From Escherichia phage Eps7, in sequence record NC_010583.1: a stretch of 64,000 nt of DNA, one strand, 5' to 3'. Each line of letters begins with the position of its first letter. The stretch's first letter is position 1. Positions 3,301 to 62,548 of this stretch are shown piece by piece. The translations under genes were made by a program, and so were the position numbers. Below the pieces are notes generated by a model. It was not told where the DNA came from, did not search any database, and worked only from the letters and a program-made list of their open reading frames with translations.

Positions 3301-4155
3301 TTACACCGTAAATGGATATGCAATAGCAGGATGGTGTTCATAGCCACGAACAGTAAAATCATCCTTACTTACCCACGTTAATACATCATCCAAAGTTCTA
3401 ATATTTGGATTGATTTCTAAAGTAGGAGGTGCAAAAGGTTCACGATCGAATTGCTTGTGCTCCATCAGAACATTATACTGATCTTCATAGATATGAAGAT
3501 TAATAATCTTTTGACGAGCAATACCTGGCTTAAGACCTGTAATCTGTGCCATAATAGCTAGAAGTGCATAGCATTGCACCATATTAAATACTTGGCCCAG
3601 CAAGAAATCATTAGACCTCTGGAAAGAGTTTAGGTATAGTGTATCACCTAAAATAGAGAATTGATGGGTATGCATACACGGACGTAGGCATCCTTTACGA
3701 AATTCCCCACGGGTTCCAAAAGTTAAAATTTCTCCACGATCGTCAATCCCTCTTTTCAAATTATGATAGACTTTGGCTAACTGATCAAATACCATACCAT
3801 CAGAATTAGTCCAATGACGTCCTTGAACACCATAGACTCGTCCCATATCATCCTCGCCTTTACGGAATGGATTACCTAGCCAGGCAATATTTTCATTTGC
3901 ATTAGCATTCCATGTATTAACACCAATAGCGCGGAATTGTGCTGCTGAGTCGTACCCACGGAGATATCCGATCATTTCCATTATTGCTTGTTTAGCAAAT
4001 GCTTTACGAGTAGTTACTAGCGGCAGTTCTCCTGCTCCTACGTTAAAGGTAAAGTCTGCATCAATAATGGTTAGGCAACGAACCCCTGTTCTAGGATTCG
4101 TTACCCATACACCCTCTTCAAGAATACGTTTTCCAGTTTCAATATATTGCTTCAT
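3301..4155 (-). CDS. thyA: thymidylate synthase
   Basis: active-site region [10 protein letters not shown] (Cys nucleophile) and overall ThyA-like layout; 284 aa. Confidence 0.95.
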
Positions 4156-4680
4156 TTAAATATCACCAATTCTTGTAAGAATGAAAGCGTTTTATCTGCA
4201 TTCTGTCCTGCCACATAGTCCATTCTAGTTGCCATTGAATTATAAGTAATATGATGATGCAGATGTACATCAGCAGATAATGGTGTGGCTGAAGTAATAG
4301 TAGAGATATACGCCATATCTAGATGATTTTTTGACATACATTTCAAGAAGCAGAGTTGCTCCCCCTAATACTACAGTTACCTCTTCCTTGAGAAAATCAG
4401 GCAGACGGTATCCAATGTTGCTTATGCGTGTAGCTGATCTTATAGAGTTCGGTAGTGGTCTATTTGCATAAATAAATAGGTCAGAATCTCCTAGTATTCT
4501 TTTTTGCAGAGTCTCAGGGAATGCTAACCAAGTTCCTGCTCCTACAATAATATTGTCAGGTGCCAGAGAATCCAATGTAGCATAGAAGATATCTAGTTCT
4601 TCTTTGAAAGAACCCCAGGGGAGCTTACCATTGAGGCCGAACTCCCCATTCGGCCCAGTTGCATAGATTGCTGCTATCAT
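4152..4680 (-). CDS. frd: dihydrofolate reductase, interrupted by a frameshift in a homopolymer
   Basis: N-terminal [22 protein letters not shown] and GGATLL motifs; frame is lost at T6 (4327-4332) and a DHFR-like C-terminus resumes in the overlapping 64-aa ORF; total ~166 aa. Confidence 0.8.
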
Positions 4681-5825
4681 TAGAACATATCCTCAAATTC
4701 GTTGCCAAGATCTTTCAGAGTATCAGCAGATGTTTCTGTTACTTGACCTACACGATACGCTGCGCCAATCTGAATCTCTTGCGGAGCAGGTTGTAAAGAT
4801 GTAGTATCCAACCAGTTCATAATCCACGGAATAGGGTTCTTAGTAATTACAGGTAAGTGGCTTGGCCATTCTACACCAATGTGCATAAATGCGTTACGTC
4901 CTACAAAGTAAAGGTATTCTTCAAGCAGTTCTGCGTTCAAACCAATCAGACTGCGGCCTTTAAAGATAAAGTGGCCCCATTCAATCTCAGTTTTCAGAGT
5001 TTTTAGGAGTTGTGTTGGTGCTTTAGCTAATGCTTCATCTACCAGATCTTTATCAAATTGCTGGAACATAATCTGGATGATAGCTTTAGACATTTGAGTA
5101 TGTAGAGCTTCATCTTTAGCGATTAATTGCAGGTTCTTAGCAATACCTTGCAGAATATCGTTCTCTGCTAGAGCAAAGGTACATGCAAAGGATGCGTAGA
5201 ACTGCATTGCTTCCAGACCGTAGATTGCAAAGTAAGCATCTAACAGCTTAGCCTGAGTTTCACGTTTAACTTCAGGGAACTCAGTTTCTGGATAAGTATT
5301 ATCACCACGATGATCACGTACTGCAAGGAAATACTGACCTAACAGATACAATTCATCAAACAGTTCAACAGAATCTGCGATACGTGCAAATGCTTCTTGG
5401 TTTTTAGTTACAGAATCAATAAATTCTGCTGGATCAGTCAGAACGTTACGAATAATATTACTATACGCACGGCTGTGCAGATCTTCGAAGTAGCTCCACT
5501 GCTTGAGCATACCCTCCAATTCAGGACGGCTTACAAGCGGCATAATAGCTGCTTCAGGAGCACGGCTAATGAAAGAATCTGTTTGGGTCTGCCATGCTAA
5601 GTTCAGGAGAGTAATTTCCTGAATATCACGCGGAAGGTTTGGCCATTGTTTCTTATCGGCTTCCAGACTGATTTCAGTTTCAGTCCAAAATTGAGAACGT
5701 TGCAGAAGTGCTAGACGCTCAAGTTCAGGATGTGCTACACGAACGTAATCTGCGATACCAAGAGAATCGCCCAGGAAAAGGTCAGCGTTAGTATGATCCC
5801 AATTCAGGTTTAGTAAAGTAGTCAT
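4680..5825 (-). CDS. nrdB: ribonucleotide reductase class Ia beta subunit
   Basis: collinear with E. coli NrdB (EDLHSRAYS, FYASFA, AKDEALH iron-ligand regions); 381 aa. Confidence 0.95.
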   Translation of the reverse strand: MTTLLNLNWDHTNADLFLGDSLGIADYVRVAHPELERLALLQRSQFWTETEISLEADKKQWPNLPRDIQEITLLNLAWQTQTDSFISRAPEAAIMPLVSRPELEGMLKQWSYFEDLHSRAYSNIIRNVLTDPAEFIDSVTKNQEAFARIADSVELFDELYLLGQYFLAVRDHRGDNTYPETEFPEVKRETQAKLLDAYFAIYGLEAMQFYASFACTFALAENDILQGIAKNLQLIAKDEALHTQMSKAIIQIMFQQFDKDLVDEALAKAPTQLLKTLKTEIEWGHFIFKGRSLIGLNAELLEEYLYFVGRNAFMHIGVEWPSHLPVITKNPIPWIMNWLDTTSLQPAPQEIQIGAAYRVGQVTETSADTLKDLGNEFEDMF

Positions 5826-5891: not shown

Positions 5892-6374
5892 TTATAAACT
5901 ATCAAGCTCCAATAGTTTAGCATCGCGCCATTCTATAGCATCCTCTAATTCTTTAAATGTTTTAGTATGTTTTACACCTTTCCTAGCTATTTGGACTTGA
6001 TAAGATCCACTTGCTTTTTGGTGTATATTTTTAATACCTAACTTATTGTCCTTATGTGCTCCAACGTTCTTTCCATTACTAAATCTGTTAGAGGCTAGTA
6101 AATTAATTGCTCTATTATCATGACGTATTCTATTATCATGATCTACTTCTTTTGGGATGTACCCATGCGTAATATAGAATGCTAGGATATGTGCGTAGTA
6201 TTTTGTACCTCTTACCTGCATTACTATGTATCCTGAGCATTTTTCCAAAGAGCCTGCCTCTTTGCCTGCAAACTTAGTATTAAATGATTTATCTTCTCTA
6301 GGTTTGTGGGTAAAGATTCCGGTTTCTGGATTATAGTCAAATAACTCAGCTATTTCTTTGTATTTTTCTTCCAT
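5892..6374 (-). CDS. HNH homing endonuclease with AP2-type DNA-binding domain
   Basis: HILAFYITHGYIP..VDHDNRIRHDNRAINL (HNH) plus GVKHTKTFKELEDAIEWRD (AP2-like); sits between nrdA and nrdB. Confidence 0.8.
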   Translation of the reverse strand: MEEKYKEIAELFDYNPETGIFTHKPREDKSFNTKFAGKEAGSLEKCSGYIVMQVRGTKYYAHILAFYITHGYIPKEVDHDNRIRHDNRAINLLASNRFSNGKNVGAHKDNKLGIKNIHQKASGSYQVQIARKGVKHTKTFKELEDAIEWRDAKLLELDSL

Positions 6375-6429: not shown

Positions 6430-8822
6430 TTATAATTGACAACCACCAGATGCGCATCCAGCAGCAGCTTCCTCTCCTGCACCTCCACCATTTTCAGTGT
6501 TGAAGTTTGCATAATAAAAGGTTTTCCAACCGTACTTAACAGCAGTCATAAAGTCACGAACTACTACTGGGCCGGGAATGATTTCATTCTCGAACTTGGT
6601 GTAGTCATAGTACATATTCGTACTGATAGACTGGCTGAAGAATTTCTGCATGGTTGCTACCCATTTGATCCACTCGATACGATCTACATCATAAGCCAGT
6701 TTATAGCTCATTAATGTATCCCAATCAGTTGCACCTGGAGCAATTGCAATTACTTTATTAACTGCACTACCCTTGATAGATACGATCTTACGGGGCGGTT
6801 CGATAGAGTTAGTAACACCTAGCAGTACAGAGGAACTTTCACCTGGCATCTGAGCAGTCAGAACAGAGTTGCGCATACCATATTTCAGAATATCTGCACG
6901 CAGAGATTCCCAATCCATTTCTAGACCTACAGTTACCAGTTCATCAACAGTTTTCTTGTACGTGTCGATTACCAGAGTTCCTTGCGAAGGCTTAGTACGA
7001 TTAAACCAGTCACATGCACCTTGTTCTTTAGCCAGACGTACAGAGGCTTTATGTAGGAAGTAGGACAGCTTTTCAGCTTCACGGTGAATCCAGTTACGTG
7101 CTTCAACACCTTCGTAAGCCAAACCTTCTGCTGCCATTGCACCTGCTGCGTTCATCAGACCAATACCAACGTTACGACGTTTCTTAGCCGTGTACTTCCA
7201 TAGTTGGGAATGGGTAATCCTGAATCTCGATGATTGTATCAACGAATTTCAGAAGGATGTAGCAAGTTTTCTCCCATTCAGCCAGAGATTCCATGCGGCC
7301 TAGTACAACACCACCTAAGTTACACAGAGATACTTCACCAATATCTTCTGGACGCATATCGTCTAACTGATCTTGGGTTTTATACAGTTCCGTAACGTGA
7401 TGGAATGGACGGGTGGCTGAGTAATTCAACACAAAAGGGTTGGTCATACGAATCGGGTCAAGGAAGTTACCATGACGGTTAGATTCACCAATGTGATGAG
7501 CATACATACGCCCTGTTTCCATACGGATACGTAACCAAGTATCTAGGATTTCTTTTGCAGAGATTCTAGGAGCTGCTGGAATTGTTTTTCCTTCGTGGTC
7601 GATCTTTGTAAGAGAAGCCACACGTTTCTCCGCTGCCACGTAGATTTCTTCAAACTTAGCCTCATCTTCACCATAAAACGCTTCATGAACTTCTGGTGCG
7701 TAGAAGTAGGACATTAGCGTAATATCTTCGTTTTTCAGGTAACGTTTTAACAGAAGGTTGTTAAAGCTCAGAGAATAATCCATCTTATCGATTTTATTCT
7801 CGTCTGTAGCACGTTGCTGCTTAACCTGCATCAACTGAATGATTTCAGGATCGAAGTATGGATAAGACACAGTAGCAGAACCGCCACGGGTTTGCTGAGT
7901 GTTAGCTTTTACTGATCGGTCAATGTGTCGATAATATGGCAGTTTTCCGGAATGCGGGAATGCCCCATTTCGCACCGGATCAGCAATTGATCGGCTTTCA
8001 AGATGATACCCGATTCCCGCTCTGGCTGCGACCATTTTGAAGACGATGTGCTCGGCTGTGTCGATTGAATCCAGCGTGTCAGTGGAATCCACGAGACAGC
8101 AACTAGCAAATCCACGGTCACTAGAGCGCAGGCCAACCAGTGGCGGCGTAGGAACGTTGATTTTGTGGAGCGACATTGCATTGTAGAGGTCGATTGCATC
8201 TAGGATTGTCCAGTTAGGTTGAGATAACATCGCCATTGCCATACCCATGTAGGCAAACTGCGGGGTTTCATAAATTTCACCAGTTGCAATATTACGACGA
8301 GAATACTTGTCGAAGAACTGTTTCAGTCCACCACTGGTGAATAAACGATCGCGATCATGATCAATAACTTGGTTCAGAGCGTCAAACTGATCATCGCTAA
8401 TCCATGCACTCATGTCTTCCCAGCGCCAACACGAACCATATGATCGTGGAAGAAACGCAGAGAAGGGGTTCAAAGGAATCATATAGGCGTTTACGCATCT
8501 GCGCAAGACGTAATTCCTTTGCTACAGTATCATATGCTGGGTTGTCTTTGATAAGACCTTCAGCGGCTTTAATTAACACATCTTGGAGGGTATCGGAATC
8601 TACAACACCTTTTGGTAGATTTTTCTGGGCAGACATAACGACGGCAGACCAACTTACGTCAGTTGCTTTACATGCCCATGCAGCCCAATCATTGAGTTTT
8701 TCAGGAGCAAAGTCCTGAACAGTACCGTCACGTTTAATTACTTTTTCAATACTATGGCTCATTGGGGTTTCCTTTTTGTAGTTATCAGGATTTAGGAAAT
8801 ATTCTACTTTGTTTTGGGTCAT
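6430..8822 (-). CDS. nrdA: ribonucleotide reductase class Ia alpha subunit, split over three frames by single-base indels
   Basis: ATP-cone N-terminus (8397..8822), catalytic core (7184..8506) and C-terminus GIGLMN..CASGGCQL (6430..7242) are collinear with E. coli NrdA; frame breaks at G4 (8465-8468), CCC (8419-8421) and about 7181-7190. Confidence 0.9.
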
Positions 8823-9129: not shown

Positions 9130-9429
9130 TTACACCTTCCCCATATCCTTAAAGATATCGTAGAATGCTTTAGACTCCGGTGAGCGAACGTTGTCGATCA
9201 GTTCGATCATAGAGAAAGGAGAGTTTTCGTACTTCTCATAGACTTCCATAAGAAGTGCTAGACCTGAATCACCCTTGATGTCTTTCTGAGCTATATCCCC
9301 ACAGATAATTAAACGACAATCTTGTCCTACACGAGTCAGGAGACAGATCATTGCTTCAACGGAGATATTCTGAGCTTCATCGACAATTACATAGGAGTTG
9401 TTGAATGTTGCCACGCTTTCTTGAACCAT
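9130..9429 (-). CDS. PhoH-like ATPase, C-terminal half only (Walker B onward)
   Basis: VIVDEAQN, LTRVG, GDIAQKD, SGL and VRS motifs; no Walker A upstream; an out-of-frame ATG with AGGAG RBS lies at about 9463. Confidence 0.65.
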   Translation of the reverse strand: MVQESVATFNNSYVIVDEAQNISVEAMICLLTRVGQDCRLIICGDIAQKDIKGDSGLALLMEVYEKYENSPFSMIELIDNVRSPESKAFYDIFKDMGKV

Positions 9430-9536
9430 TGCGGTTCTCTCTTTTTTGACGTGCTTTTCCCATAAATAACACTCCTATAGTGTACTTCGCTAACAGAGGA
9501 TCAACAAAAAGATCTTGTTTATCAACTTACAAATAT

Positions 9537-12447: not shown

Positions 12448-13261
12448 TGCGTAGACTAATCGTTGTTAGTGGTGCAGGTTTGAGTGTAGATAGTGGTGTT
12501 CGTGCTTTCCGTACTGATACTGCTAGTGGTAAAGCGTTGTGGGATGATTATGACCTAGAAGAGGTATGTAATATTCATGCCTTTCGTGGTAATTTTACCA
12601 TAAAACTCATATGTTTTACAACAAACGTCGTGAAGAGTTACAAACTGTTGAACCTAACCTAGCTCATTTGCGTATTGGTGAATGGTATAAACGGTATCCA
12701 AATCAAGTGGTAAACCTTACTACCAATGTTGATGATCTAATCGAACGTGCTGGAGTGCCGAGAGAAGATATACTCCATATTCATGGATATCTGAAAGAAA
12801 TTATTGTAGAGCATGCGTTCGACCAGACACGTGATGTTATTGATATTGGGTATAGTTCTATTGATCCAGATGACTTTGATTGGGTTAAACCTAACGTTAT
12901 CTTCTTTGGTGAGGTTGCTCCTGCCTATAAAACAATGTATGAGGTTTTTGATGGTATCACCAGTCATGATATGATCATCATTGTTGGGTGCTCTAACCAA
13001 GTAATTAACTTCTACTGGGAGCTATTTCCTGTTCTGAATCTTACTGCTGCAAAACTTATGGTAGTTAACTATTACGATAGTGCAGTAGCTATGGAACCAG
13101 GCTATCAGGGCATGACTCGTAGTGAAATGTATCAGTTAGAAGAACGTGGTATTCCTTACTGGAGTAAAGGTGCTGTGGATGCCTTTAGTGATCCCGATTT
13201 TATTGCTCGTGTGGAAGCTCATCTAGAAGGTAAACCCTATGTTCAACAAAAGCATGTGTGA
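12447..13261 (+). CDS. Sir2-family NAD-dependent deacetylase / ADP-ribosyltransferase-like protein, frameshifted
   Basis: VVSGAGLSVDSGVRAFR (GAGxS..SG..FR), TTNVDDLIERAG, HG, KPNVIFFGE, IIVGCS motifs; frame break at T4 (12594-12597). Confidence 0.8.
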
Positions 13262-18609: not shown

Positions 18610-19314
18610 ATGGCTGGTTCTCGTAGAAAGAAACTTATCCATGAAATCCCTGATGAAACCTTTAAAAAGGTTATTGAACATCTGGAGAATGGTGGTACTA
18701 AGAAAGCAGCCTGTGAGATGCTCGGTGTTTCTTCTAACCCAACTATGGAACGAATGATCGAGGAATGGAGAGATCGTCAGGTTCAAGTTGCGGAAATGAA
18801 AAAGAAGAAGCGCGGAACACTAATTGAAGGTGTTGAGCTTGCAAACGTAATTGAACAGTATCTTTCTGGTGATTCTTTTGAAGAAATCGCAGATCGTAAC
18901 TATCGTTCTGTAGCGATGATTAAATCTGTTCTGGAACGTTATGGTGCTCTGCTTCGTTTAAACGATATTGTTGATCCATTGAATCCTCCATTGATTCCTG
19001 ATGATGCAATGGCAGAAGAATTTGAAGTTGGCGAACTTGTTTGGGTTCCCGGCTACCAGTGTATTGGTGAAATCAAGAAAGCAATGACTAACCCAGTTGG
19101 CTGCTACCGTGTTTGGTTGTTATCAGAAGGTAAACAACAGAACGTTCACTATATGCACTACGAATTAGCTTCTGTTAAACATCTGGAAAAGCTGGGAGTT
19201 GATGTTAAAGCTCTGGGCTTTAAATGGAGCCGTGAAGAAGTTATCACGTTGGTTAATGAAGCTGTTAAAGCCGCCCTGAAACTCGATAAAGAGAAAGGAA
19301 AACGTCGTGAGTAA
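18610..19314 (+). CDS. putative HTH DNA-binding protein
   Basis: N-terminal HTH-like GGTKKAACEMLGVS; 234 aa, directly downstream of the PN25-like promoter. Confidence 0.55.
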   Translation: MAGSRRKKLIHEIPDETFKKVIEHLENGGTKKAACEMLGVSSNPTMERMIEEWRDRQVQVAEMKKKKRGTLIEGVELANVIEQYLSGDSFEEIADRNYRSVAMIKSVLERYGALLRLNDIVDPLNPPLIPDDAMAEEFEVGELVWVPGYQCIGEIKKAMTNPVGCYRVWLLSEGKQQNVHYMHYELASVKHLEKLGVDVKALGFKWSREEVITLVNEAVKAALKLDKEKGKRRE

Positions 19315-19540
19315 ACTAACTGATCTGTTAAAAGCTGGAGACGTGAAATATCTCCAGCGAGATAGCTGGAAGAACACCCGAGACTTTACATTCTTGTTAA
19401 AATTTGATGTAGATAGTGACACTGTTAAGCTATATGAGTGGCCTAGTATACACTGCGTACGCCCGATAGTAACAGTAGTTAATCTTAGTCTAGAAGAAGC
19501 TCTGGCCGACGATTGGGAGATCGTTGAACTAGATGTGTAG
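19307..19540 (+). CDS. hypothetical protein (77 aa)
   Basis: overlaps the preceding stop. Confidence 0.4.
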   Translation: MSKLTDLLKAGDVKYLQRDSWKNTRDFTFLLKFDVDSDTVKLYEWPSIHCVRPIVTVVNLSLEEALADDWEIVELDV

Positions 19541-36606: not shown

Positions 36607-36640
36607 ACCCCAGTGGACAATCCACTGGGGTTTTCTCTTA
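36607..36640 (+). terminator. rho-independent terminator closing the rightward early block
   Basis: CCCCAGTGGA-CAA-TCCACTGGGG followed by TTTTCTCTT. Confidence 0.75.
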
Positions 36641-36718
36641 TTTAGTAAGGAGTTGTTTTACTAATTCCTTTATTTTATTAATCTTTTTTTTTTTGAAAGG
36701 GTGCAAAACGAACCTCTT

Positions 36719-36748
36719 GCATTTTGCATTTTGCATTTTGCGTTTTCA
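36719..36748. repeat. tandem heptamer (GCATTTT) x4 next to a T11 tract at the convergent early/late junction
   Basis: TTGCATTTTGCATTTTGCATTTTGCGTTTTC; T11 run at about 36684-36694. Confidence 0.6.
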
Positions 36749-36882
36749 TATTGTACATAAGAACAGCCTAAGAATCAGCGAACTGTTAACATAGCAGAAC
36801 ACGCGTTGCGTTGCTAGGATAATCAATGTTCAGGCTTGTTTCGCAGCAATATTTTTCAGTGACAGATTGCACTCCACTTATA

Positions 36883-39833
36883 TTATGGTAGTTCTGTAAT
36901 TGTTGGAGCATTTCCGTTAAGCATTGATTTTACAAGGTTTTTCAGTTCATATAACTCATTGCGTAATACGTTAATTTCCTCCTGTTGATTATCAATCTTT
37001 GCTTTTTGCTCTTTGAATGCGTTAACAAGAAGTGCGACAACACCATTATAGTTAATGCCTTTGATTGCCTCGCCTTTTGGGTCTAGCTGACCATCGTTAT
37101 TCAAAGAATGAACCGCTTCCGGCAAAACCCTTTCAACATCTTGTGCGATCAATCCAGCCTCAATACTATAAACGCTGTTTTCATCTTCAATTAGATTGTT
37201 GCGCTTGTAGTAAGTATAACCAGTTAGATAATCAATTTTGTCGGATGCCGTTTCGATCTCTTTTAGATGTGCTTTTAATCTAATGTCAGACCTGCTAACC
37301 CAATTTGATGCGCTACCATTTCCAGCACTATCAAAAATAAAGTCAGCGCCCTTAACATAAAGATGTGTTTCAGCGCCGCCAGAAGTCCACGGAACAACAT
37401 CCATGCCAGCTATCCAATCTTTCCCCAATAAACAGATTTAAATATGGCAACCGCAGAATCAAATCCAATGTGCTCAACAAGCAATCCAGACGCACGACTA
37501 CGCCAGTCGGCAAATGAACCACCCTCAACTTGACCAGCAATAAGAGCGTTTGGATCACCGCGCCTAACTCCATTTACATACATACCCCTTGCGTTATCAT
37601 CAACATAAGATGATATGACCCTGTAAGTGTTTATTCCTGATGGAGTCCATGCAAATATTCTCGCTGAATCAGCAAACGCGCTTATGTGACCATCACGATC
37701 CCATTTAAGACCTGAATCATGATCCCCAATTGCTATAGAGTAATCACCAAGAGCCGATTGAGCATCCGGACTTAATAACATCAATTGCCTATCAGATCTT
37801 GCTATCCTGTACCATCCACCCCAAGAGCCAGCACTGCAAATGATACCCCATTTATTACCGTTCATTGCGGTTGCAACAATATTTCCATACTCAACATGAC
37901 CGTTTGCATTTTTACCGTGAACATGCAATTCATACATCCACCAACCAGAGGCTTCAGGTGGTTGATATGTAACAAGTTCTCCGCTTGAGTAATAACCGCT
38001 TTCTGCGTATGTTGACATAAACCCAAGAATGTTTGAATTATTAGGAATAATAATTGCTTGACCACCAACAGGAGTATTTAAGTTCTTTCTTGCTCCAACT
38101 TCAGTATTAGATCCAGTGCCGCCAGCATCAATTGAAAGAGGAATCCATCTTCCAGTTTCATCAGTCCAAACACCCCACGCCGCATCAGGTCTAATTGTGA
38201 TTCGATAAGGTGAGTTACTCCCTGGTGCATACATCATAGTTTCTGTTTCTGTTTGCTTTAAACGATCAATGCCAAAGTTTATTTTTGCGCCCTCAACGTT
38301 TTCAGCACCAGTACCGCCAGCACCAATAGAAAGCGCAGATGTGCTGTTATTGTCATTACGCGCAACGCGCCATTCCCCATTGTTAGCGATCCGTAATTCA
38401 TAAGTCCATGCAGGATTACGAAAAGAATTATAAGCGCCAGCATATTGATCTTTTACAGAATTAACAGCCTCAACTTTTAGCGCCTCCCTTGCAAGGTCTT
38501 TGTTTGCAAGATCATTAAGGTTCTGATCCTTCTTTAACGACGCTTGCATAACCTGTTCTGCTGATGCAGCCGCTGTCTCCGCTCTATCTGCTGCACTGGT
38601 GGCATTAGTAGCTTTCTCTCCTGCTATTGTAGCGCTACCAGCGGCCTCCAGGGCCTTGTCTGTTGCTGTCGTTGCAGCAGTAGTGGCGGTATTTTTAAAT
38701 ACCTCTGCTTCGTCTCTGTAGCCTTTGGTTGTGGTCATCGCTTGCGTAGCTGTATTCGCACTACCTGATGCACTTTGCTGAGCTAGCTTAGCAGCGTCTT
38801 CACTAGCTTTTGAGTTAATTTCACTAGTCTTTGTATTAGTTTCTGAGTTTTTTGCTGCTAATGCTGATGTGGAGGCTTGTGCAGCGAATGCTTCTGCTTC
38901 ATCCCTGAATCCTTTGGAGTCAGAAGCAGAGGCAGCGGAATCAGCAGCATTAGTCTCACTAGTTTTTGCTGCTGCTGCATATGCTGCTGCATTAGTCTCA
39001 CTAGTTTTTGCATTAGTCTCACTAGTTTTTGCATTAATCTCACTAGTTTTTGCTGCAGCTGATGATTCTATAGCAGTAGTTTCACTAATTTTTGCTGCAG
39101 CTGATGATTCTGCAGCTTTAGTAGCGGATGCAGCAGATTGAGAAGCAGAAATAGCAGACTGAGAAGCAGAAGCTTCAGAAGCTTCAGCAGAAATAGCAGA
39201 TTCATTCTCAGAATTCTTAGCATTAAGTTCTGAAGTCTTAGCAGCTATCTCGGAGTCTTTTGCAGTAGTAGCGTATTCTCCCGCCTCTGTAGCAGAACCA
39301 GCAGCAGCAATAGCCTGATTGGTAGACTCAGTAGCAGATGTAGCAGCATTTTGCTCAGAAGTAGCAGCAGCAGTCTTAGCAGCCTCAGCGTCCTTCTTAG
39401 CTTGTTCAGCTAATAGACGACTCTGTTCAGCATTTTGTGCAGCAAGTTCAGCAGAATCACGGAATCCTTTGGATTCCTCAGCTGACGTAGCAGAGGCATC
39501 AGCACTATCTTTAGATAAACCAGCTTGTCTCTCCGCTTCAGTAGCAGAAGCAGCAGATTGAGTTGCAGAAGTTTCTGAAGAGTTAGCGTAAATTGCAGCT
39601 AGGTTCTCCGAGTCCTTAGCATTTGTTTCAGATTCTTTTGCTGCAATTTCAGAATCTTTTGCTGCCGCAGCAGAAGCAGCAGAGGCCTCAACAGCCCCTG
39701 TTAGTTCACTAGCAGTAATAGAACTAATAGAAGTACCTAAAACTACCGTATACTTAGGATATTTACTAGCAGTAGTTGTAGTGTCATCTATGTTCAGAAT
39801 CTGCTGTACAATAATTTTAGTTTTAAGTGCCAT
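36883..39833 (-). CDS. ltf: L-shaped tail fibre (pb1-like) with C-terminal intramolecular chaperone domain, frameshifted
   Basis: Ala/Ser/Thr-rich fibrous repeats, then a Gly-rich globular domain, then chaperone motif IEAGLIAQDVERVLPEAV; frame break at C4/G4 (37423-37426). Confidence 0.8.
38947..39115. repeat. 21-bp tandem repeats inside the tail fibre gene (encoding KTSETNA heptads)
   Basis: ATTAGTCTCACTAGTTTTTGC x3 in tandem at 38990-39052 plus further partial copies. Confidence 0.7.
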
Positions 39834-45887: not shown

Positions 45888-48800
45888 TTAAGAATTACCA
45901 AGTGATTTCAGGGTGGTTCCATTCTCATTAAGAGCCTGTTCCACGGCATCCCTGAAAGCAGCACTGTTACTCGAAGCAAAGTCTCGGAAGCTAGCCGCAT
46001 CCATCGTACTGATGTTCAGCACAATAGGCCTACCCGATGTACCCTTTGAAGATCCTTTGAGTTCATCAGTAGGAGTAGCCTTCATCGGAACCATAGGAGT
46101 GATTACTTCGGTACCATGCTCACCCATCTGGTAACTAACTCCAGGGTACATATTACCACCTTCTGCACGAGGTACGAAAGAGTTCGCATTACCAATCCCT
46201 TGATCTCCTCGAATATAAGAAAGTTCTCCTGCGTTAGCCGACATAGAAACGTCTACGTTCTTCTGGCGCTCTCCAAGAGACAAGTATTGAGCTGTCTCAG
46301 TACCCGAGTCTCCAATAGAAGACATACCAGATGCAGAGGATGCTTGTGCAAGAGACAATGCACCTGCAACACCTGCTGCAATCATAAGAGGGATAGACCA
46401 CGGGTAAGGAACAGCTGTTGCTGCTTGCATCACCGCTACTGCCGTCTGAATTATGATCTGCTTCTTAGCTGCGTCTTGCTGGATCTTAACCTTTTCCGCT
46501 TCCAGTTTCTTGAGCTTAGCTTTAGATGCTTCGGATTTACCGTCACGTTTTTGCTCTGCTGCAATAGCCTGGTCAATAGCTGATACTTGATTACTTACTC
46601 CCATAGCAATCATTGAAGAAACCATCTGCATACCTGCCGCCACAGTGCTAACAGTATCTAAAGATCCCTGAGAGAACTGCATCATGGCATTAGTAAGATT
46701 TCCCATACTCTGGCCAACTTCCGTTGCTTGGCTATTTAATGCTCCAAGTTTAGAAATAGCTTCGTCGTAAGAGGCCATCTGGTTCTGCATATCAGCATAC
46801 TTCTTATCATCCCCAGATAAACCAGTCGTAGGAGTATAAGTAGCTCCAACAGAAGAACCTACCTGTTGCTGCATCTGAGCATTACGTTGTGCTGTTAAAG
46901 CCGACATCTGAGCCCTTGTCTTGGCTATTTCAGCATTCCAGCGCATTTGCTCGTTAGCATTACCTTTGGTAAGTTCTTTCATCTTGGTATAAAAATCTAA
47001 CTGCATTTCCATTTTTTTGCATTTCCCCTGCCAGAGGGAACATGGAAGTTAGAGTATTTTCAAAGGCTTCTTGCCTTTTACTGGTCATTTCAGCTTGCTG
47101 GTCTTGGCGGAATTTCCAGATTTCACGCCCTATCTGTGCTTGAGCACGTCTTGATTGTTCAGCTTCTTTCTGCTTATCAGCTTGTTTTGTATACCATTCG
47201 TACTTCTCTTTTTCAATAGTCAATTCAAGATTTAACTGTGCTAGACGATACTGAGTATCTGTCATAGTACGGTTATTTAAGAGAGCTATTTCACGATCAA
47301 CACCAAGAATCTTATCCGTATAGTCCTTAACTTTCTTCTGAGCTTCCATGTCCTGGTTAGTAATTTTGATACGTTCTAACTGAACCTTAGCTATTTCATT
47401 CTCAATTGCCTTGTTACCTTTGTTAGTTTCTAGGACACGCTTAAGAGCTGCTTCCTGTTCTTCTAACTGTTGGATTTCTAGACGTCTACCCGCTTCCTGT
47501 GCTTTCTCTTTATCCTTGGTCTGGTTGTACACTTCGGCAATCTTTTGCTGAACTTCTAGCTGATTTTTAGTCTCATTACTAGTTAATTTTACATAACCAG
47601 CAAGAGCTTGTGAGGCAGTCTTCATCTCACTAAGAGTATTATACCCTAAGTTCAGACTCTTAACATACTCATCAGCATTTTTACCAGTGCCGGCAGATAG
47701 AGACTCAATAGTCTTAATCGTATCCGATAGGGATGCACTAGTTTTAGCCGCAGTATTAGTATTTTCGGCAATGTTCTGGATATCGTTAGCTAAATCACTA
47801 GCAGTTTTCTTAGCCTGATCATATGCTTTCTGCTGTTCCGTCAGTCCTTTCAGAGTTGCGGAGTTAAAGTCATAAACCGCATCAGGGTCATTCATATCCT
47901 TCTGCAGATTAATCTGCTTCTGAAATTCTGGATTAGTCTTAGCAGCCGCAGCACCAGCAGCTTGATACGCAGATTTCCAAGCATTAAGGTTTTCAGTAGA
48001 GTCATCAACTTCTTTACCTAACCTTGCTACCTGTAGTCCCATAGCTGCGGTTTCTTCTACAAACTTTTTGTTAGCTTCGGAAGAACCTATGCGCACTCCC
48101 CCTACTTCAAATCCCCCAGCAGCTAATCCAACAGGCATTCCCTCACCCACTAATCTAATAGCGGCAGCAGTACTAGCATCTGCTTGGGACATACGTTTAT
48201 CAAACTCAGTCTTTAGTTTATTACGCTTATCCAGAGACTCTTTATACATATCAAGAGCTTTATTATATCCTTCCTCGGAAGCGGAAAGACTTAAAGCTAC
48301 AGCACCAACGTTAGTTGGGTCAATCTGACGGTTAGTTTCTTCTTGTGCTCTAGCAGCAGAAGCCGAGATAGATGCTTGAGAAGTATAGAATACTGCGTTA
48401 ATAGAATCAATTACCGGCCCTAAATACTTAGCAGCAGCCTGTTGAACCTTTCTTAGTGCAGCATCAGCGTTAGCAGCAAACTGTTCCCATGGAGTTGCAC
48501 GGAGTACGTCATCCAAGTAGCCGAAACGTTTAGTAGATTCAGCAATTACTGCGTTAGCATATGCTTGTTGCTTTTGGAAAGTGGAAAGACTATTGACGTT
48601 ATATGTGATACCTGTGTTAGCAGCATTTAACTGTTTAACGTAGTCAGCGTAAGCATCATTAAGACGAATAGTAACACCAAGTTCGTCCAGAAGTTCGATT
48701 TCTTGTTTAGATACACCTTTGATTACACGGTTAAGTGCATCAGTCATATCAACACCAAGAACAGCAGCAGCACGACGGGCTACTAGACCAAATTTATTAA

Positions 48801-60860: not shown

Positions 60861-62548
60861 TTACCAAGGTTTTTTATTATAAATATATCCATTTCTACGA
60901 AAAGCCATCTCATCAGGTCTACTAGCCCACGTTTGGGTATAGCTATATGAAGTTGTACTGTGATATGGTACTAGATAGCCAGGTGGCAGAGTAAGAATCT
61001 GATGAAATACACCATCACCAGCTGTATAACTTTGTTGACGTCTACCTTGTACCTGCCAAGCACTACCACCGTAAGTACGTACAGGCATACCAGCAGTATT
61101 AAGATTACCCATAATAACTTCAGTAGTTAATATAACAGTAGAGTGAGCATTTGGTAATCCCAACCAAACTGTAGCCAAAGGTGTGTAGAAGTCACCAGCA
61201 CCAGGGTAGGATGGAGTTATATCATCCCCAACATAAGTACTCGCAACGTTGCCTGGGAATAATCTAAGTGGTACGGTACTAGGACTCCATACAGGGCCAT
61301 GCTCATTACCTATAGAGTTGGTATTAGTATCTACATACCACTGTTTACCAACACCAAATTTATAAAGGCTAATTTGAGAAGCAGCACCCCCATAGTTAAC
61401 AGGAGACCACAAACCCCCATTACTAGAGCCGATAAATTCACATCGTGCAGTATTATCACCAAAAACTCCGGTATACGCGGTATTATTACCAACATACTCC
61501 ATATCAGGGCGATAACCTAAGTTTCCAAAAGCATTCTGGTTAATAAATTTATAGCCTGAGTTGGGTAAGCTAACACCTTTAATAGTAAAGTTAGATGGAG
61601 ATATCAGGATATCTGAACCAGTAAATGGATTACCAGAAATCCCCATACTACCATTAGAATAGCGTAGATTTAGCACATACCAAATAACTTTAGTAGGTGT
61701 AACATTATACCAGTCTTGCACATATACCTTTCTAGCTGACTGAGCAGCCATATTAGAAGTAGAACCTCTACAAACATATATTTTTTCTGGGTATGCAGGA
61801 GATTGGTAAAGAACGTTTACGTTATCTGGTAGTACTACCTTTTTTTACCGGCAAAGCCACGAATATTGGAACTACAAACGTAAAACCAATCATGACCTCT
61901 ACCAGCAGACCCGATAGGCGCTTGCCAGTTAGGCTCCCAATAGTCTGCATTACCACCATCTATAGGAACTGTAGATACACCCGTTGGAAAGCCCATTAAT
62001 CCCCAGGCTCTAGAAATAGCTTCACCAGCAGAAACACCACCAGGTCTAAAGATCTGGAAACCGGAAGATTGTAGCAAAGTACCGCCAGTTCCTTGTCTAG
62101 CAATAGATTCCTCATGACCTAGGCTACCATTATAAATATAGGTACCATGAGCTAAACTATCACCGATTGCAAAGGCAGATGTTATTGCCAATTCAGCACC
62201 AGCACGTGGTTGGTCTTCAAAGAATGTTAAAAACTGGCCAACCTGAGATTGTGTACCATTAAGGAAACCCCTATGAGTACCGTTTATCTCAATAGCAGTT
62301 AATATAACTCTACCAGGATCATTGGATTTAATGTTTATAATATCCCAAGGCATCTGAGTAACAAAATACCCATTACCTGCATCACCTAGAGCAGCCTCGT
62401 AAGTCCCATCAACTAGGACAAATGGCATATCTGAGTGGAAGATACTATTAGTATTTGGAGAGTAGTGCTGATTTATATCACCACCATTAGCAGCGTTTAG
62501 AGATAATACAGTTTTACCATCACTAAATTTTCCTGCGAAAAAACTCAT
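60861..62548 (-). CDS. receptor-binding tail protein (functional analogue of T5 pb5/Oad), frameshifted
   Basis: 237-aa and 296-aa ORFs join (~560 aa) if the T7 run (61840-61846) is read as T8; divergent from an Llp-like lipoprotein gene. Confidence 0.6.

What the first reader, a model, noticed from the sequence alone, without database searches (positions are those of the whole stretch)
6430..8822. nrdA is split into three reading frames by three single-base indels
Alignment-guided reading shows frame loss at G4 (8465-8468; the E. coli-like FEPP needs one more base), at CCC (8419-8421) and at about 7181-7190. All other parts are collinear with class Ia NrdA. Three hits in an essential gene argue for sequencing error, but a genuinely inactivated nrdA in a phage that also carries nrdD would be biologically meaningful.
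Basis: seen in the sequence. Interest (0 to 1): 0.5.

Follow-up and report, generated by a model that had tools for sequence, protein, structure and literature searches.

The report
Sequencing-error frameshifts in phage nrdA
The large-subunit ribonucleotide reductase gene of this T5-like phage (the published EPS7 genome) looks broken into pieces, but the breaks are almost certainly mistakes in the deposited sequence and not a dead gene, so the finding is ordinary.

Summary
The split is real in the sequence but under-counted. nrdA (8822..6430, minus strand) differs from the intact 2394-nt gene of its relatives by eight inserted or deleted bases at four places, not three. The missed place (7414-7439, net length change 0) rewrites the catalytic motif NLCVEITQPT as NPFVLNYSAT.

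Two as-written products match GenBank proteins of Escherichia phage EPS7 exactly, so the window is that 2008 record of a plaque-forming isolate.

Evidence for error in the deposited sequence:
- No allele is shared by any of 397-526 T5-like phage records, by IMG/VR contigs, or (for the two alleles scanned) by metagenome contigs.
- Beyond codon 100 there are 9 substitutions against the nearest relative, all synonymous.
- Between the indels the DNA is 99.5-100% identical to database relatives.
- The same record has private frameshifts in virion genes the phage cannot do without (tape-measure pb2, receptor-binding pb5, two other tail genes).
- Restoring the eight bases gives an intact 797-aa NrdA.

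Several indels fall on synonymous sites that vary among relatives. The catalytic-site cluster starts at an intein insertion point used in related phages. This hints at a consensus built from mixed templates on an indel-prone platform. A real, very recent inactivation is not excluded (about 5-8%).

The parts
6430..8822 (-). Whole nrdA (class Ia ribonucleotide reductase alpha subunit). It is 2393 nt as written; relatives have 2394 nt / 797 aa.
   Evidence: Restoring 8 bases gives one 797-aa ORF with 789/797 residues identical to phage phagemcphageface NrdA.
8467..8822 (-). Segment 1: codons 1-119 in the original frame (ATP-cone). As written, this frame runs on to a TAG at 8397-8399.
   Evidence: tblastn frames; Pfam ATP-cone; as-written translation.
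8465..8468 (-). Indel 1: one base missing. The window has GGGG where relatives have GG[T/A/C]GG, which is the third base of a Pro codon (CCA/CCT/CCG).
   Evidence: No record among 468 shares the allele.
8423..8466 (-). Segment 2: codons 120-134, shifted by -1 and 100% identical to relatives when read in that frame.
8419..8423 (-). Indel 2: one base missing. The window has CCCAG where relatives have CCCAAG or CCCAGG, which is the third base of an Ala codon (GCT/GCC/GCA).
   Evidence: Private.
7197..8422 (-). Segment 3: codons 135-543, shifted by -2 (all-alpha domain and the first half of the barrel). It is deposited in GenBank as a 409-aa 'large subunit' starting at the ATG at 8413.
   Evidence: Exact match to ACB97552.1 / YP_001837032.1 of Escherichia phage EPS7.
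7414..7439 (-). Indels 3-6: +C, +T, -A, -A on the coding strand, net 0. Codons 463-470 are scrambled, so NLCVEITQPT becomes NPFVLNYSAT. Catalytic Cys464 and Glu466 (E. coli Cys439, Glu441) are lost. The cluster starts at the point where related phages carry a LAGLIDADG intein.
   Evidence: Private among 397 records; absent from IMG/VR and metagenome contigs. Intein site.
7195..7197 (-). Indel 7: one extra base. The window has GTACTTCC where relatives have GTATTCC or GTACTCC. On the coding strand this is GAAG where relatives have GAA or GAG (Glu).
   Evidence: Private among 526 records; absent from metagenome contigs.
7184..7186 (-). Premature TAA that ends segment 3 as written.
6430..7196 (-). 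Segment 4: codons 544-797 plus the stop, shifted by -1 (second half of the barrel, the Tyr-Tyr pair, the C-terminal Cys pair).
4680..5825 (-). nrdB, the partner subunit. It is intact: 381 aa, 99.5% identical to relatives.
5892..6374 (-). Free-standing HNH homing endonuclease gene between nrdA and nrdB, intact. It is present, absent or duplicated in different relatives.

Best explanation
The phage has a normal, working class Ia nrdA. The breaks are errors in the deposited consensus of the 2008 EPS7 genome record.

Shown:
- The eight single-base differences exist only in this record.
- They are the only meaningful difference from intact relatives.
- The same record has equivalent errors in genes the phage cannot live without.

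Inferred: how the errors arose. The lesions are purely insertions and deletions, mostly changes in the length of short runs. Five of them fall on synonymous sites that vary among close relatives; the variable base is either dropped or both variants are kept. One cluster begins at an intein insertion point. This fits a consensus called on an indel-prone (flow-type) platform and/or from templates that were not uniform in this patch, for example a stock holding two nrdA alleles, one perhaps with the intein. I put about 0.85 on 'artefact' overall and only about 0.3-0.4 on this particular origin.
For: 1. Identity of the record. The as-written 409-aa NrdA fragment, scrambled motif included, and the 99-aa PhoH fragment are exactly ACB97552.1 and ACB97554.1 of Escherichia phage EPS7 on a 111,382-bp contig. 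EPS7 is a BtuB-dependent infective isolate.

2. The alleles are private.
- The best of 397, 468 and 526 phage records differ from the window by exactly the gap columns at the three queried stretches, and none reaches 99%.
- The cluster allele is absent from IMG/VR. The cluster allele and the 7195 allele are absent from metagenome contigs.
- PSa2, a member of the same species, has an intact nrdA and shows the same set of differences.

3. Selection signature.
- Beyond codon 100 there are 9 differing codons against chee130_1, all synonymous.
- Stretches between the indels have 0-2 mismatches to the best database relative.
- nrdA has the lowest private-substitution density in the window (about 2.5 per kb, against about 17 per kb for the window as a whole) but about 3 indels per kb.
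- Under neutral decay, 7 indels with no non-synonymous change has P about 6e-5.

4. Record-wide errors. Private frame-breaking indels also sit in:
- pb2, the tape-measure / pore-forming protein (47012, T6 to T7 against alleles 99.7% identical);
- the receptor-binding protein (60877 -2, 61836 +1, 61840 +1);
- a pb4-like tail protein (42087);
- a minor tail protein (51203);
- ligase subunit B (22290);
- frd (4327).

5. Repairing the 8 bases gives an uninterrupted 797-aa protein. nrdB and nrdD are intact.

6. Placement of the indels.
- All 4 deletions can be read as loss of a polymorphic third-codon base (null 0.33 each, P about 0.012).
- The insertion keeps both alleles of a GAA/GAG polymorphism.
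- The cluster begins at the intein site before catalytic Cys464 seen in L044 and L045 (chance about 0.02).
Against: - No reads or quality values are available, so the error is inferred and not observed.
- The indels are about 15 times denser in nrdA than in other coding sequence of the window (P about 5e-7). Simple uniform error does not explain them and a local cause must be assumed.
- Their neighbours are also damaged: thyA has a compensated pair, frd a frameshift, and phoH a private 419-bp deletion. These are all dispensable nucleotide-metabolism genes. The phoH deletion is flanked by an imperfect direct repeat and looks like a real deletion rather than a base-calling slip.
- The +2 change at 7433-7439 is not explained by the simple 'drop or keep both alleles' rule.
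- The EPS7 paper with the sequencing method could not be read.
Confidence: 0.85

Rival explanations
1. Real, very recent pseudogene. The sequenced EPS7 stock truly carries these eight changes. nrdA is dead, and the phage lives on host ribonucleotide reductase and its own anaerobic nrdD.
For: - Lesions concentrate in nrdA.
- Adjacent dispensable metabolism genes are also hit: frd frameshift, thyA pair, phoH 419-bp microhomology-flanked deletion.
- nrdD is intact.
- As written, catalytic Cys464 and Glu466 are gone.
Against: - There are 0 non-synonymous substitutions alongside 7 indels, and all 9 substitutions are synonymous.
- nrdB is intact at 99.5%.
- One frameshift is enough to kill the gene, so six more within a span of near-zero divergence need an indel-only mutator.
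- The same kind of lesion breaks pb2 and the receptor-binding protein, which an infective phage must have.
- No other record carries any of the alleles.
Confidence: 0.07
2. Mixed case. One or a few lesions are real and tied to mobile-element traffic, and the rest are errors. For example, the catalytic-site cluster could be damage to, or an escape change of, the intein homing site. The junction-associated indels could come from recombination between co-infecting relatives.
For: - The cluster begins exactly at the insertion point of a LAGLIDADG intein present in related phages.
- Indels at 7195 and at 8422/8467 lie where the window switches between chee130_1-like and 3-29-like alleles.
- A homing endonuclease gene sits next to nrdA.
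Against: - A single double-strand-break repair does not give four separate one-base changes over 24 nt with net length 0.
- Destroying the catalytic residues buys nothing, since homing itself is harmless.
- The allele is found nowhere else.
- Mosaic switching of alleles is common in these phages without indels.
Confidence: 0.05
3. Functional split gene or recoding. The pieces are translated separately and assemble, as in Aeromonas phage Aeh1, or ribosomes shift frame at the three sites.
For: There is a precedent for a working two-piece NrdA (PMC3045599). The three large ORFs each hold whole domains or half-barrels.
Against: - No inserted gene lies between the pieces, and there are no new starts, ribosome-binding sites or tails. 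The flanks are base-for-base those of intact relatives.
- Catalytic Cys and Glu are missing as written.
- There are no slippery motifs or long runs at the sites (read directly).
- No relative conserves any of the shifts.
Confidence: 0.01

Closest known systems
Intact class Ia NrdA of Epseptimavirus phages (PSa2 of the species Epseptimavirus EPS7, chee130_1/saus132, SB6, 3-29, phagemcphageface)
   Same: - Same locus order: thyA-frd-nrdB-(HNH)-nrdA-orf-phoH, with nrdD divergent.
- 96-97% DNA identity over the gene.
- 99.5-100% identity between the indels.
- Same domains.
   Different: Eight private inserted or deleted bases, which break the frame three times and scramble eight codons at the active site.
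Genes-in-pieces nrdA of Aeromonas phage Aeh1 (nrdA-a / mobE / nrdA-b; PMC3045599)
   Same: A phage class Ia large subunit encoded in more than one ORF, with a homing endonuclease gene in the neighbourhood.
   Different: - In Aeh1, an endonuclease gene is inserted between the Cys439 and Cys462 equivalents.
- Both Aeh1 pieces have their own starts and charged tails, and every catalytic residue is kept.
- Here nothing is inserted, the breaks are at codons 119, 134 and 543, and the catalytic motif is lost.
Intein-interrupted nrdA alleles of T5-like phages in IMG/VR (L044, L045 before catalytic Cys464; L038, L044 after Gln311)
   Same: The insertion point before Cys464 coincides with the start of the window's four-indel cluster.
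   Different: Those alleles carry an in-frame insert of about 1 kb with a LAGLIDADG domain and intact exteins. The window has no insert, only four single-base changes.
Ordinary phage pseudogene (decayed accessory gene)
   Same: Premature stops and a lost active site as written.
   Different: There is no sign of relaxed selection, no shared ancestry of the lesions, and the partner gene is intact.

Membership tests
Class Ia ribonucleotide reductase alpha subunit (NrdA) | ATP-cone, all-alpha and ten-stranded barrel domains in the usual order | tested here: met
   Pfam finds ATP-cone (8400-8822), Ribonuc_red_lgN plus barrel positions 1-275 (7187-8506) and barrel positions 274-522 (6433-7242). The E. 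coli R1 structure matches at E = 1.6e-64.
Class Ia ribonucleotide reductase alpha subunit (NrdA) | Catalytic Asn-x-Cys-x-Glu motif (E. coli N437/C439/E441) | tested here: not met
   As written the motif reads TNPFVLNYSAT where relatives have TNLCVEITQPT. It is restored when the four bases at 7414-7439 are corrected.
Class Ia ribonucleotide reductase alpha subunit (NrdA) | One continuous reading frame of about 760-800 codons | tested here: not met
   As written there are three ORFs of 141, 440 and 270 aa. The relatives checked individually have a single CDS; chee130_1, SB6 and phagemcphageface have a 797-codon frame, and 433 records cover at least 80% of the 2.7-kb query.
Class Ia ribonucleotide reductase alpha subunit (NrdA) | Adjacent intact beta subunit gene (nrdB) | tested here: met
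   nrdB at 4680-5825 is 381 aa and 99.5% identical to relatives.
Genuine pseudogene | Relaxed selection: non-synonymous changes accumulate alongside the disabling lesions | tested here: not met
   Beyond codon 100 there are 9 synonymous and 0 non-synonymous differences against chee130_1. P about 6e-5 under neutral decay.
Genuine pseudogene | The lesions are reproducible in independent sequence of the same or related genomes | tested here: not met
   No other record or contig carries them. Reads from the same stock are not available.
Genes-in-pieces NrdA (Aeh1 type) | A mobile gene inserted between the pieces, with each piece having its own start and all catalytic residues retained | tested here: not met
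   There is no insert, the flanks are identical to intact relatives, and the catalytic motif is lost.
Programmed frameshift / transcriptional slippage | A slippery motif or long homopolymer at the shift site, with the shift conserved in relatives | tested here: not met
   The sites are GAACCCCTT, GCGCTGGG and GGAAGTAC. All relatives are in frame.
Sequencing / consensus artefact | Disagreement with raw reads or with resequencing of the same stock | not testable with these tools
   No reads are available, and the paper describing the sequencing could not be opened.
Sequencing / consensus artefact | The same error type elsewhere in the record, including in genes that must work in an infective phage | tested here: met
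   Private frameshifts occur in pb2, the receptor-binding protein, two other tail genes, ligB and frd. The record is EPS7, an infective isolate.

The most novel reading that the evidence does not exclude
The eight changes are real in the EPS7 stock. nrdA would then have been destroyed very recently by an indel-only process. The four-indel scramble sitting exactly on the homing site of the catalytic-Cys intein would be collateral damage from, or escape from, intein/homing-endonuclease attack during co-infection. The phage would get by on nrdD and the host reductase.
Probability: 0.05. Interest if true: 0.55.

Novelty: not a real feature. Interest (0 to 1): 0.08.

Why it matters
The main value is data hygiene. 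EPS7 is the name-giving genome of the genus Epseptimavirus, and its record supplies a 409-aa 'large subunit' fragment and a 99-aa PhoH fragment to protein databases. Anyone using it to study ribonucleotide reductase content, gene splitting or tail proteins would be misled. Correcting eight bases restores a normal gene. If the lesions were real, it would be a rare snapshot of a lytic phage discarding its aerobic reductase, but the evidence is strongly against that.

Tried and rejected
- Uniformly poor sequence. Rejected as the whole story: indels are about 15 times denser in nrdA than in other coding sequence.
- Low-quality Sanger read tails. Unlikely: there are no accompanying base substitutions, and stretches between the indels are 99.5-100% identical to relatives.
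- Errors in the relatives instead of the window. Rejected: the relatives checked individually annotate a single intact nrdA CDS, and none of the 397-526 records compared shares any of the window's indel alleles.
- My guess that the source was phage H8 (AC171169). Wrong: exact protein look-up identifies EPS7.
- Independent occurrences of the indel alleles. Searches of IMG/VR (cluster allele) and metagenome contigs (cluster and 7195 alleles) found none. The wild-type 37-mer was found in 3 IMG/VR contigs.
- Literature comment on the EPS7 nrdA split or the sequencing method. Nothing found, and the EPS7 paper itself is not held.
- Recoding or split-gene function. Rejected; see rival explanations.
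- The 'both alleles or neither' rule. It does not account for the +2 change at 7433-7439, nor for the indels in thyA, ligB and the pb4-like gene, where the three relatives compared show no variation.

Full report
**What is there**

The minus strand of 6430-8822 encodes a class Ia ribonucleotide reductase large subunit. As written it is read in three long ORFs: 8822..8397 (141 aa), 8506..7184 (440 aa) and 7242..6430 (270 aa). These carry the ATP-cone, the all-alpha domain plus barrel positions 1-275, and barrel positions 274-522. The middle ORF matches E. coli R1 at E = 1.6e-64.

The locus is that of a T5-like phage of the genus Epseptimavirus. The gene order is thyA, frd, nrdB, an HNH endonuclease gene, nrdA, a small ORF and phoH, with nrdD divergent.

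**Checking the observation**

The relatives checked individually annotate a single intact nrdA CDS; in chee130_1, SB6 and phagemcphageface the frame is 2394 nt / 797 codons. The window has 2393 nt. Alignment with five complete relatives (chee130_1, SB6, phagemcphageface, 3-29, PSa2) always gives the same seven events, eight bases in all:

| Window position | Change (plus strand unless stated) |
|---|---|
| 8465-8468 | one base missing inside G4; relatives have GG[T/A/C]GG |
| 8422/8423 | one base missing beside CCC 8419-8421 |
| 7433-7439 | two bases extra (AAAA for AAA, GGG for GG) |
| 7425-7426 | one base missing (TT for TTT) |
| 7414 | one base missing (T for TT) |
| 7195-7197 | one base extra |

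The third was placed 5-14 nt off; the range 7181-7190 contains the resulting stop codon at 7184-7186, not the indel.

That cluster has net length change 0, so it does not alter the frame downstream. It does replace eight codons and turns TNLCVEITQPT into TNPFVLNYSAT. This removes the equivalents of E. coli Cys439 and Glu441.

The gene therefore passes through four frame segments: codons 1-119, 120-134, 135-543 and 544-797. Each is 98-100% identical to relatives in its own frame beyond the divergent N-terminal ATP-cone.

**Where the window comes from**

An exact-sequence look-up found two as-written products in GenBank:
- The fragment starting at the ATG at 8413 (409 aa, with the scrambled motif) is ACB97552.1 / YP_001837032.1, 'ribonucleoside-diphosphate reductase large subunit [Escherichia phage Eps7]'.
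- The 99-aa PhoH remnant is ACB97554.1.

Both sit on a 111,382-bp contig. The window is therefore the 2008 EPS7 genome record. EPS7 is an isolated, infective phage that uses BtuB as its receptor. The record itself is not in the phage collection searched, which is why the best DNA hits stop at 97%.

**Are the lesions real mutations or errors?** Five lines of evidence point to errors.

1. *The lesions are private.* Short queries around each place matched 397, 468 and 526 T5-like records. The best hits differ from the window by exactly the gap columns, and none reaches 99%. The cluster allele is absent from IMG/VR, where the wild-type 37-mer occurs. The cluster allele and the 7195 allele are absent from metagenome contigs. 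PSa2, classified in the species Epseptimavirus EPS7, has an intact gene.

2. *The gene shows purifying selection right up to the present.*
   - Beyond codon 100, only nine codons differ from chee130_1, and all nine changes are synonymous.
   - Stretches between the indels have 0-2 mismatches to the best relative.
   - nrdA has the lowest private-substitution density in the window, about 2.5 per kb against about 17 per kb for the window as a whole, but about 3 indels per kb.
   - If the gene were decaying neutrally, seven indels with no non-synonymous substitution would have probability about 6e-5, even allowing one neutral mutation in five to be an indel.

3. *The partner nrdB is intact*, at 381 aa and 99.5% identity. 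So is nrdD.

4. *The same record has the same kind of private lesion in genes an infective phage needs.*
   - The tape-measure / pore-forming protein pb2 has T6 to T7 at 47012, against alleles 99.7% identical.
   - The receptor-binding protein has -2 at 60877 and +1 at 61836 and 61840. This puts about 320 conserved codons out of frame.
   - A pb4-like tail protein (42087), a minor tail protein (51203), ligase subunit B (22290) and frd (4327) are also broken.

5. *Restoring the eight bases gives one 797-aa ORF*, with 789/797 residues identical to a relative's NrdA.

**Why so many in nrdA?**

The errors are not evenly spread. From the rate elsewhere in coding sequence, 0.45 events are expected in nrdA and seven are seen (P about 5e-7). 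Some local cause is needed. Three observations suggest one.

- *Polymorphic sites.* Five of the seven events (all four deletions and the 7195 insertion) sit on synonymous third-codon positions that vary among relatives.
  - The base missing at 8467 is the CCA/CCT/CCG position.
  - The base missing at 8422 is the GCT/GCC/GCA position.
  - The one at 7425 can be the GAA/GAG position.
  - The one at 7414 can be the CCA/CCT position.
  - At 7195 the window has GAAG where relatives have GAA or GAG, so both alleles are kept.
  - All four deletions being explainable this way has P about 0.012 against a null of 0.33 each.
- *Allele switches.* The indels at 7195 and at 8422/8467 lie where the window switches between chee130_1-like and 3-29-like alleles.
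- *Intein site.* The catalytic-site cluster starts exactly between codons 463 and 464. At that point IMG/VR relatives L044 and L045 carry an in-frame intein of about 1 kb with a LAGLIDADG domain, immediately before the catalytic Cys. The chance of such a coincidence is about 0.02.

The lesion profile is indel-only and mostly changes the length of short runs. Taken together, this is what I would expect from two things acting together. One is consensus calling on an indel-prone, flow-type platform. The other is templates that were not uniform across this patch. An example would be a stock holding two nrdA alleles, one possibly with the intein.

This last step is inference from general knowledge of how such consensus errors arise. 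It does not explain the +2 change at 7433-7439 or the indels in thyA, ligB and the pb4-like gene.

**Rivals**

- *A real, fresh pseudogene.* This keeps some weight. The neighbouring dispensable genes are also affected: a thyA compensated pair at 3710/3718, the frd frameshift, and a private 419-bp phoH deletion flanked by an imperfect direct repeat. The phoH deletion looks like a true deletion or a misjoin rather than a base-calling slip.
- *A mixed case.* The catalytic-site cluster could be real damage at the intein homing site. This cannot be excluded, but it has no mechanism that gives four separate one-base changes with net zero length.
- *A working split gene of the Aeh1 kind (PMC3045599), or recoding.* This is contradicted by the lost catalytic residues, by flanks identical to intact relatives, and by the absence of slippery sites.

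**Comparison with the known, and verdict**

The gene is an ordinary Epseptimavirus nrdA. It fails two defining tests of a functional NrdA only as written (continuous frame, catalytic motif) and passes both after eight corrections. It fails the tests for a genuine pseudogene: there is no relaxed selection and the lesions are not reproducible. The feature reported is therefore best filed as not real, that is, an artefact of the EPS7 record. Interest is low. The practical consequence is that the EPS7 reference should be resequenced or corrected, because its fragment proteins are propagated in databases.

Noticed in passing
window 9130-9463 (junction at about 9406-9415): phoH has a private 419-bp, frame-breaking deletion. 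All 442 matching phage records span 870 bp where the window has 451 bp. The junction lies between imperfect direct repeats, GTTCGGCCACG and GTTGCCACG. The 99-aa remnant is annotated in GenBank as EPS7 PhoH (ACB97554.1). It could be a real deletion or a misjoin of contigs.
   Followed up: partly
window 47012; 60877, 61836, 61840; 42087; 51203; 22290; 4327: Private frame-breaking indels split pb2 (tape-measure / pore-forming protein), the receptor-binding protein (three frames), a pb4-like tail protein, a minor tail protein, ligase subunit B and dihydrofolate reductase. Eight conserved genes in the window, counting nrdA and phoH, are broken as written.
   Followed up: yes
window 3710 and 3718 (thyA); 4243 (frd): thyA has a compensated +1/-1 pair 8 nt apart that changes three codons. 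frd has a 3-nt in-frame deletion near its 3' end. Both are private to the window.
   Followed up: partly
L044 301-2766, L045 301-3651, L038 301-3600 (IMG/VR T5-like contigs): Some T5-like phages carry inteins in nrdA. One, with a LAGLIDADG domain, sits immediately before the catalytic Cys464 (L044, L045). A second sits after Gln311, before SRGGSA (L038, L044); it had no Pfam hit at E <= 0.001. L044 appears to hold both.
   Followed up: partly
window 5892-6374: The free-standing HNH endonuclease gene between nrdA and nrdB varies among close relatives. It is absent in 3-29 and PSa2, annotated as only 109 aa in chee130_1 (100% identical over those residues), and accompanied by a second endonuclease gene in SB6.
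   Followed up: partly
window 8520-8822 (nrdA codons 1-100): The ATP-cone end of nrdA is a different allele from the rest of the gene. It has 21 non-synonymous differences from chee130_1 but is much closer to phagemcphageface and 3-29. This is mosaic exchange inside the gene.
   Followed up: partly
window 46883-47130; 12600-13260; 19300-19540; 36630-39600: Short patches are replaced by divergent alleles relative to chee130_1, SB6 and phagemcphageface: a pb2 internal patch, the Sir2-like gene, a small ORF and the L-shaped tail fibre. The pb2 patch is 99.7% identical to phages ende, bastian and PMBT27.
   Followed up: partly
window 14994, 18544, 30533, 45859, 49620, 53047, 58769, 58900: Private one-base length changes occur in intergenic homopolymer runs (for example A5 to A6, T6 to T7, G4 to G3). 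This is the same error type as in the genes.
   Followed up: no
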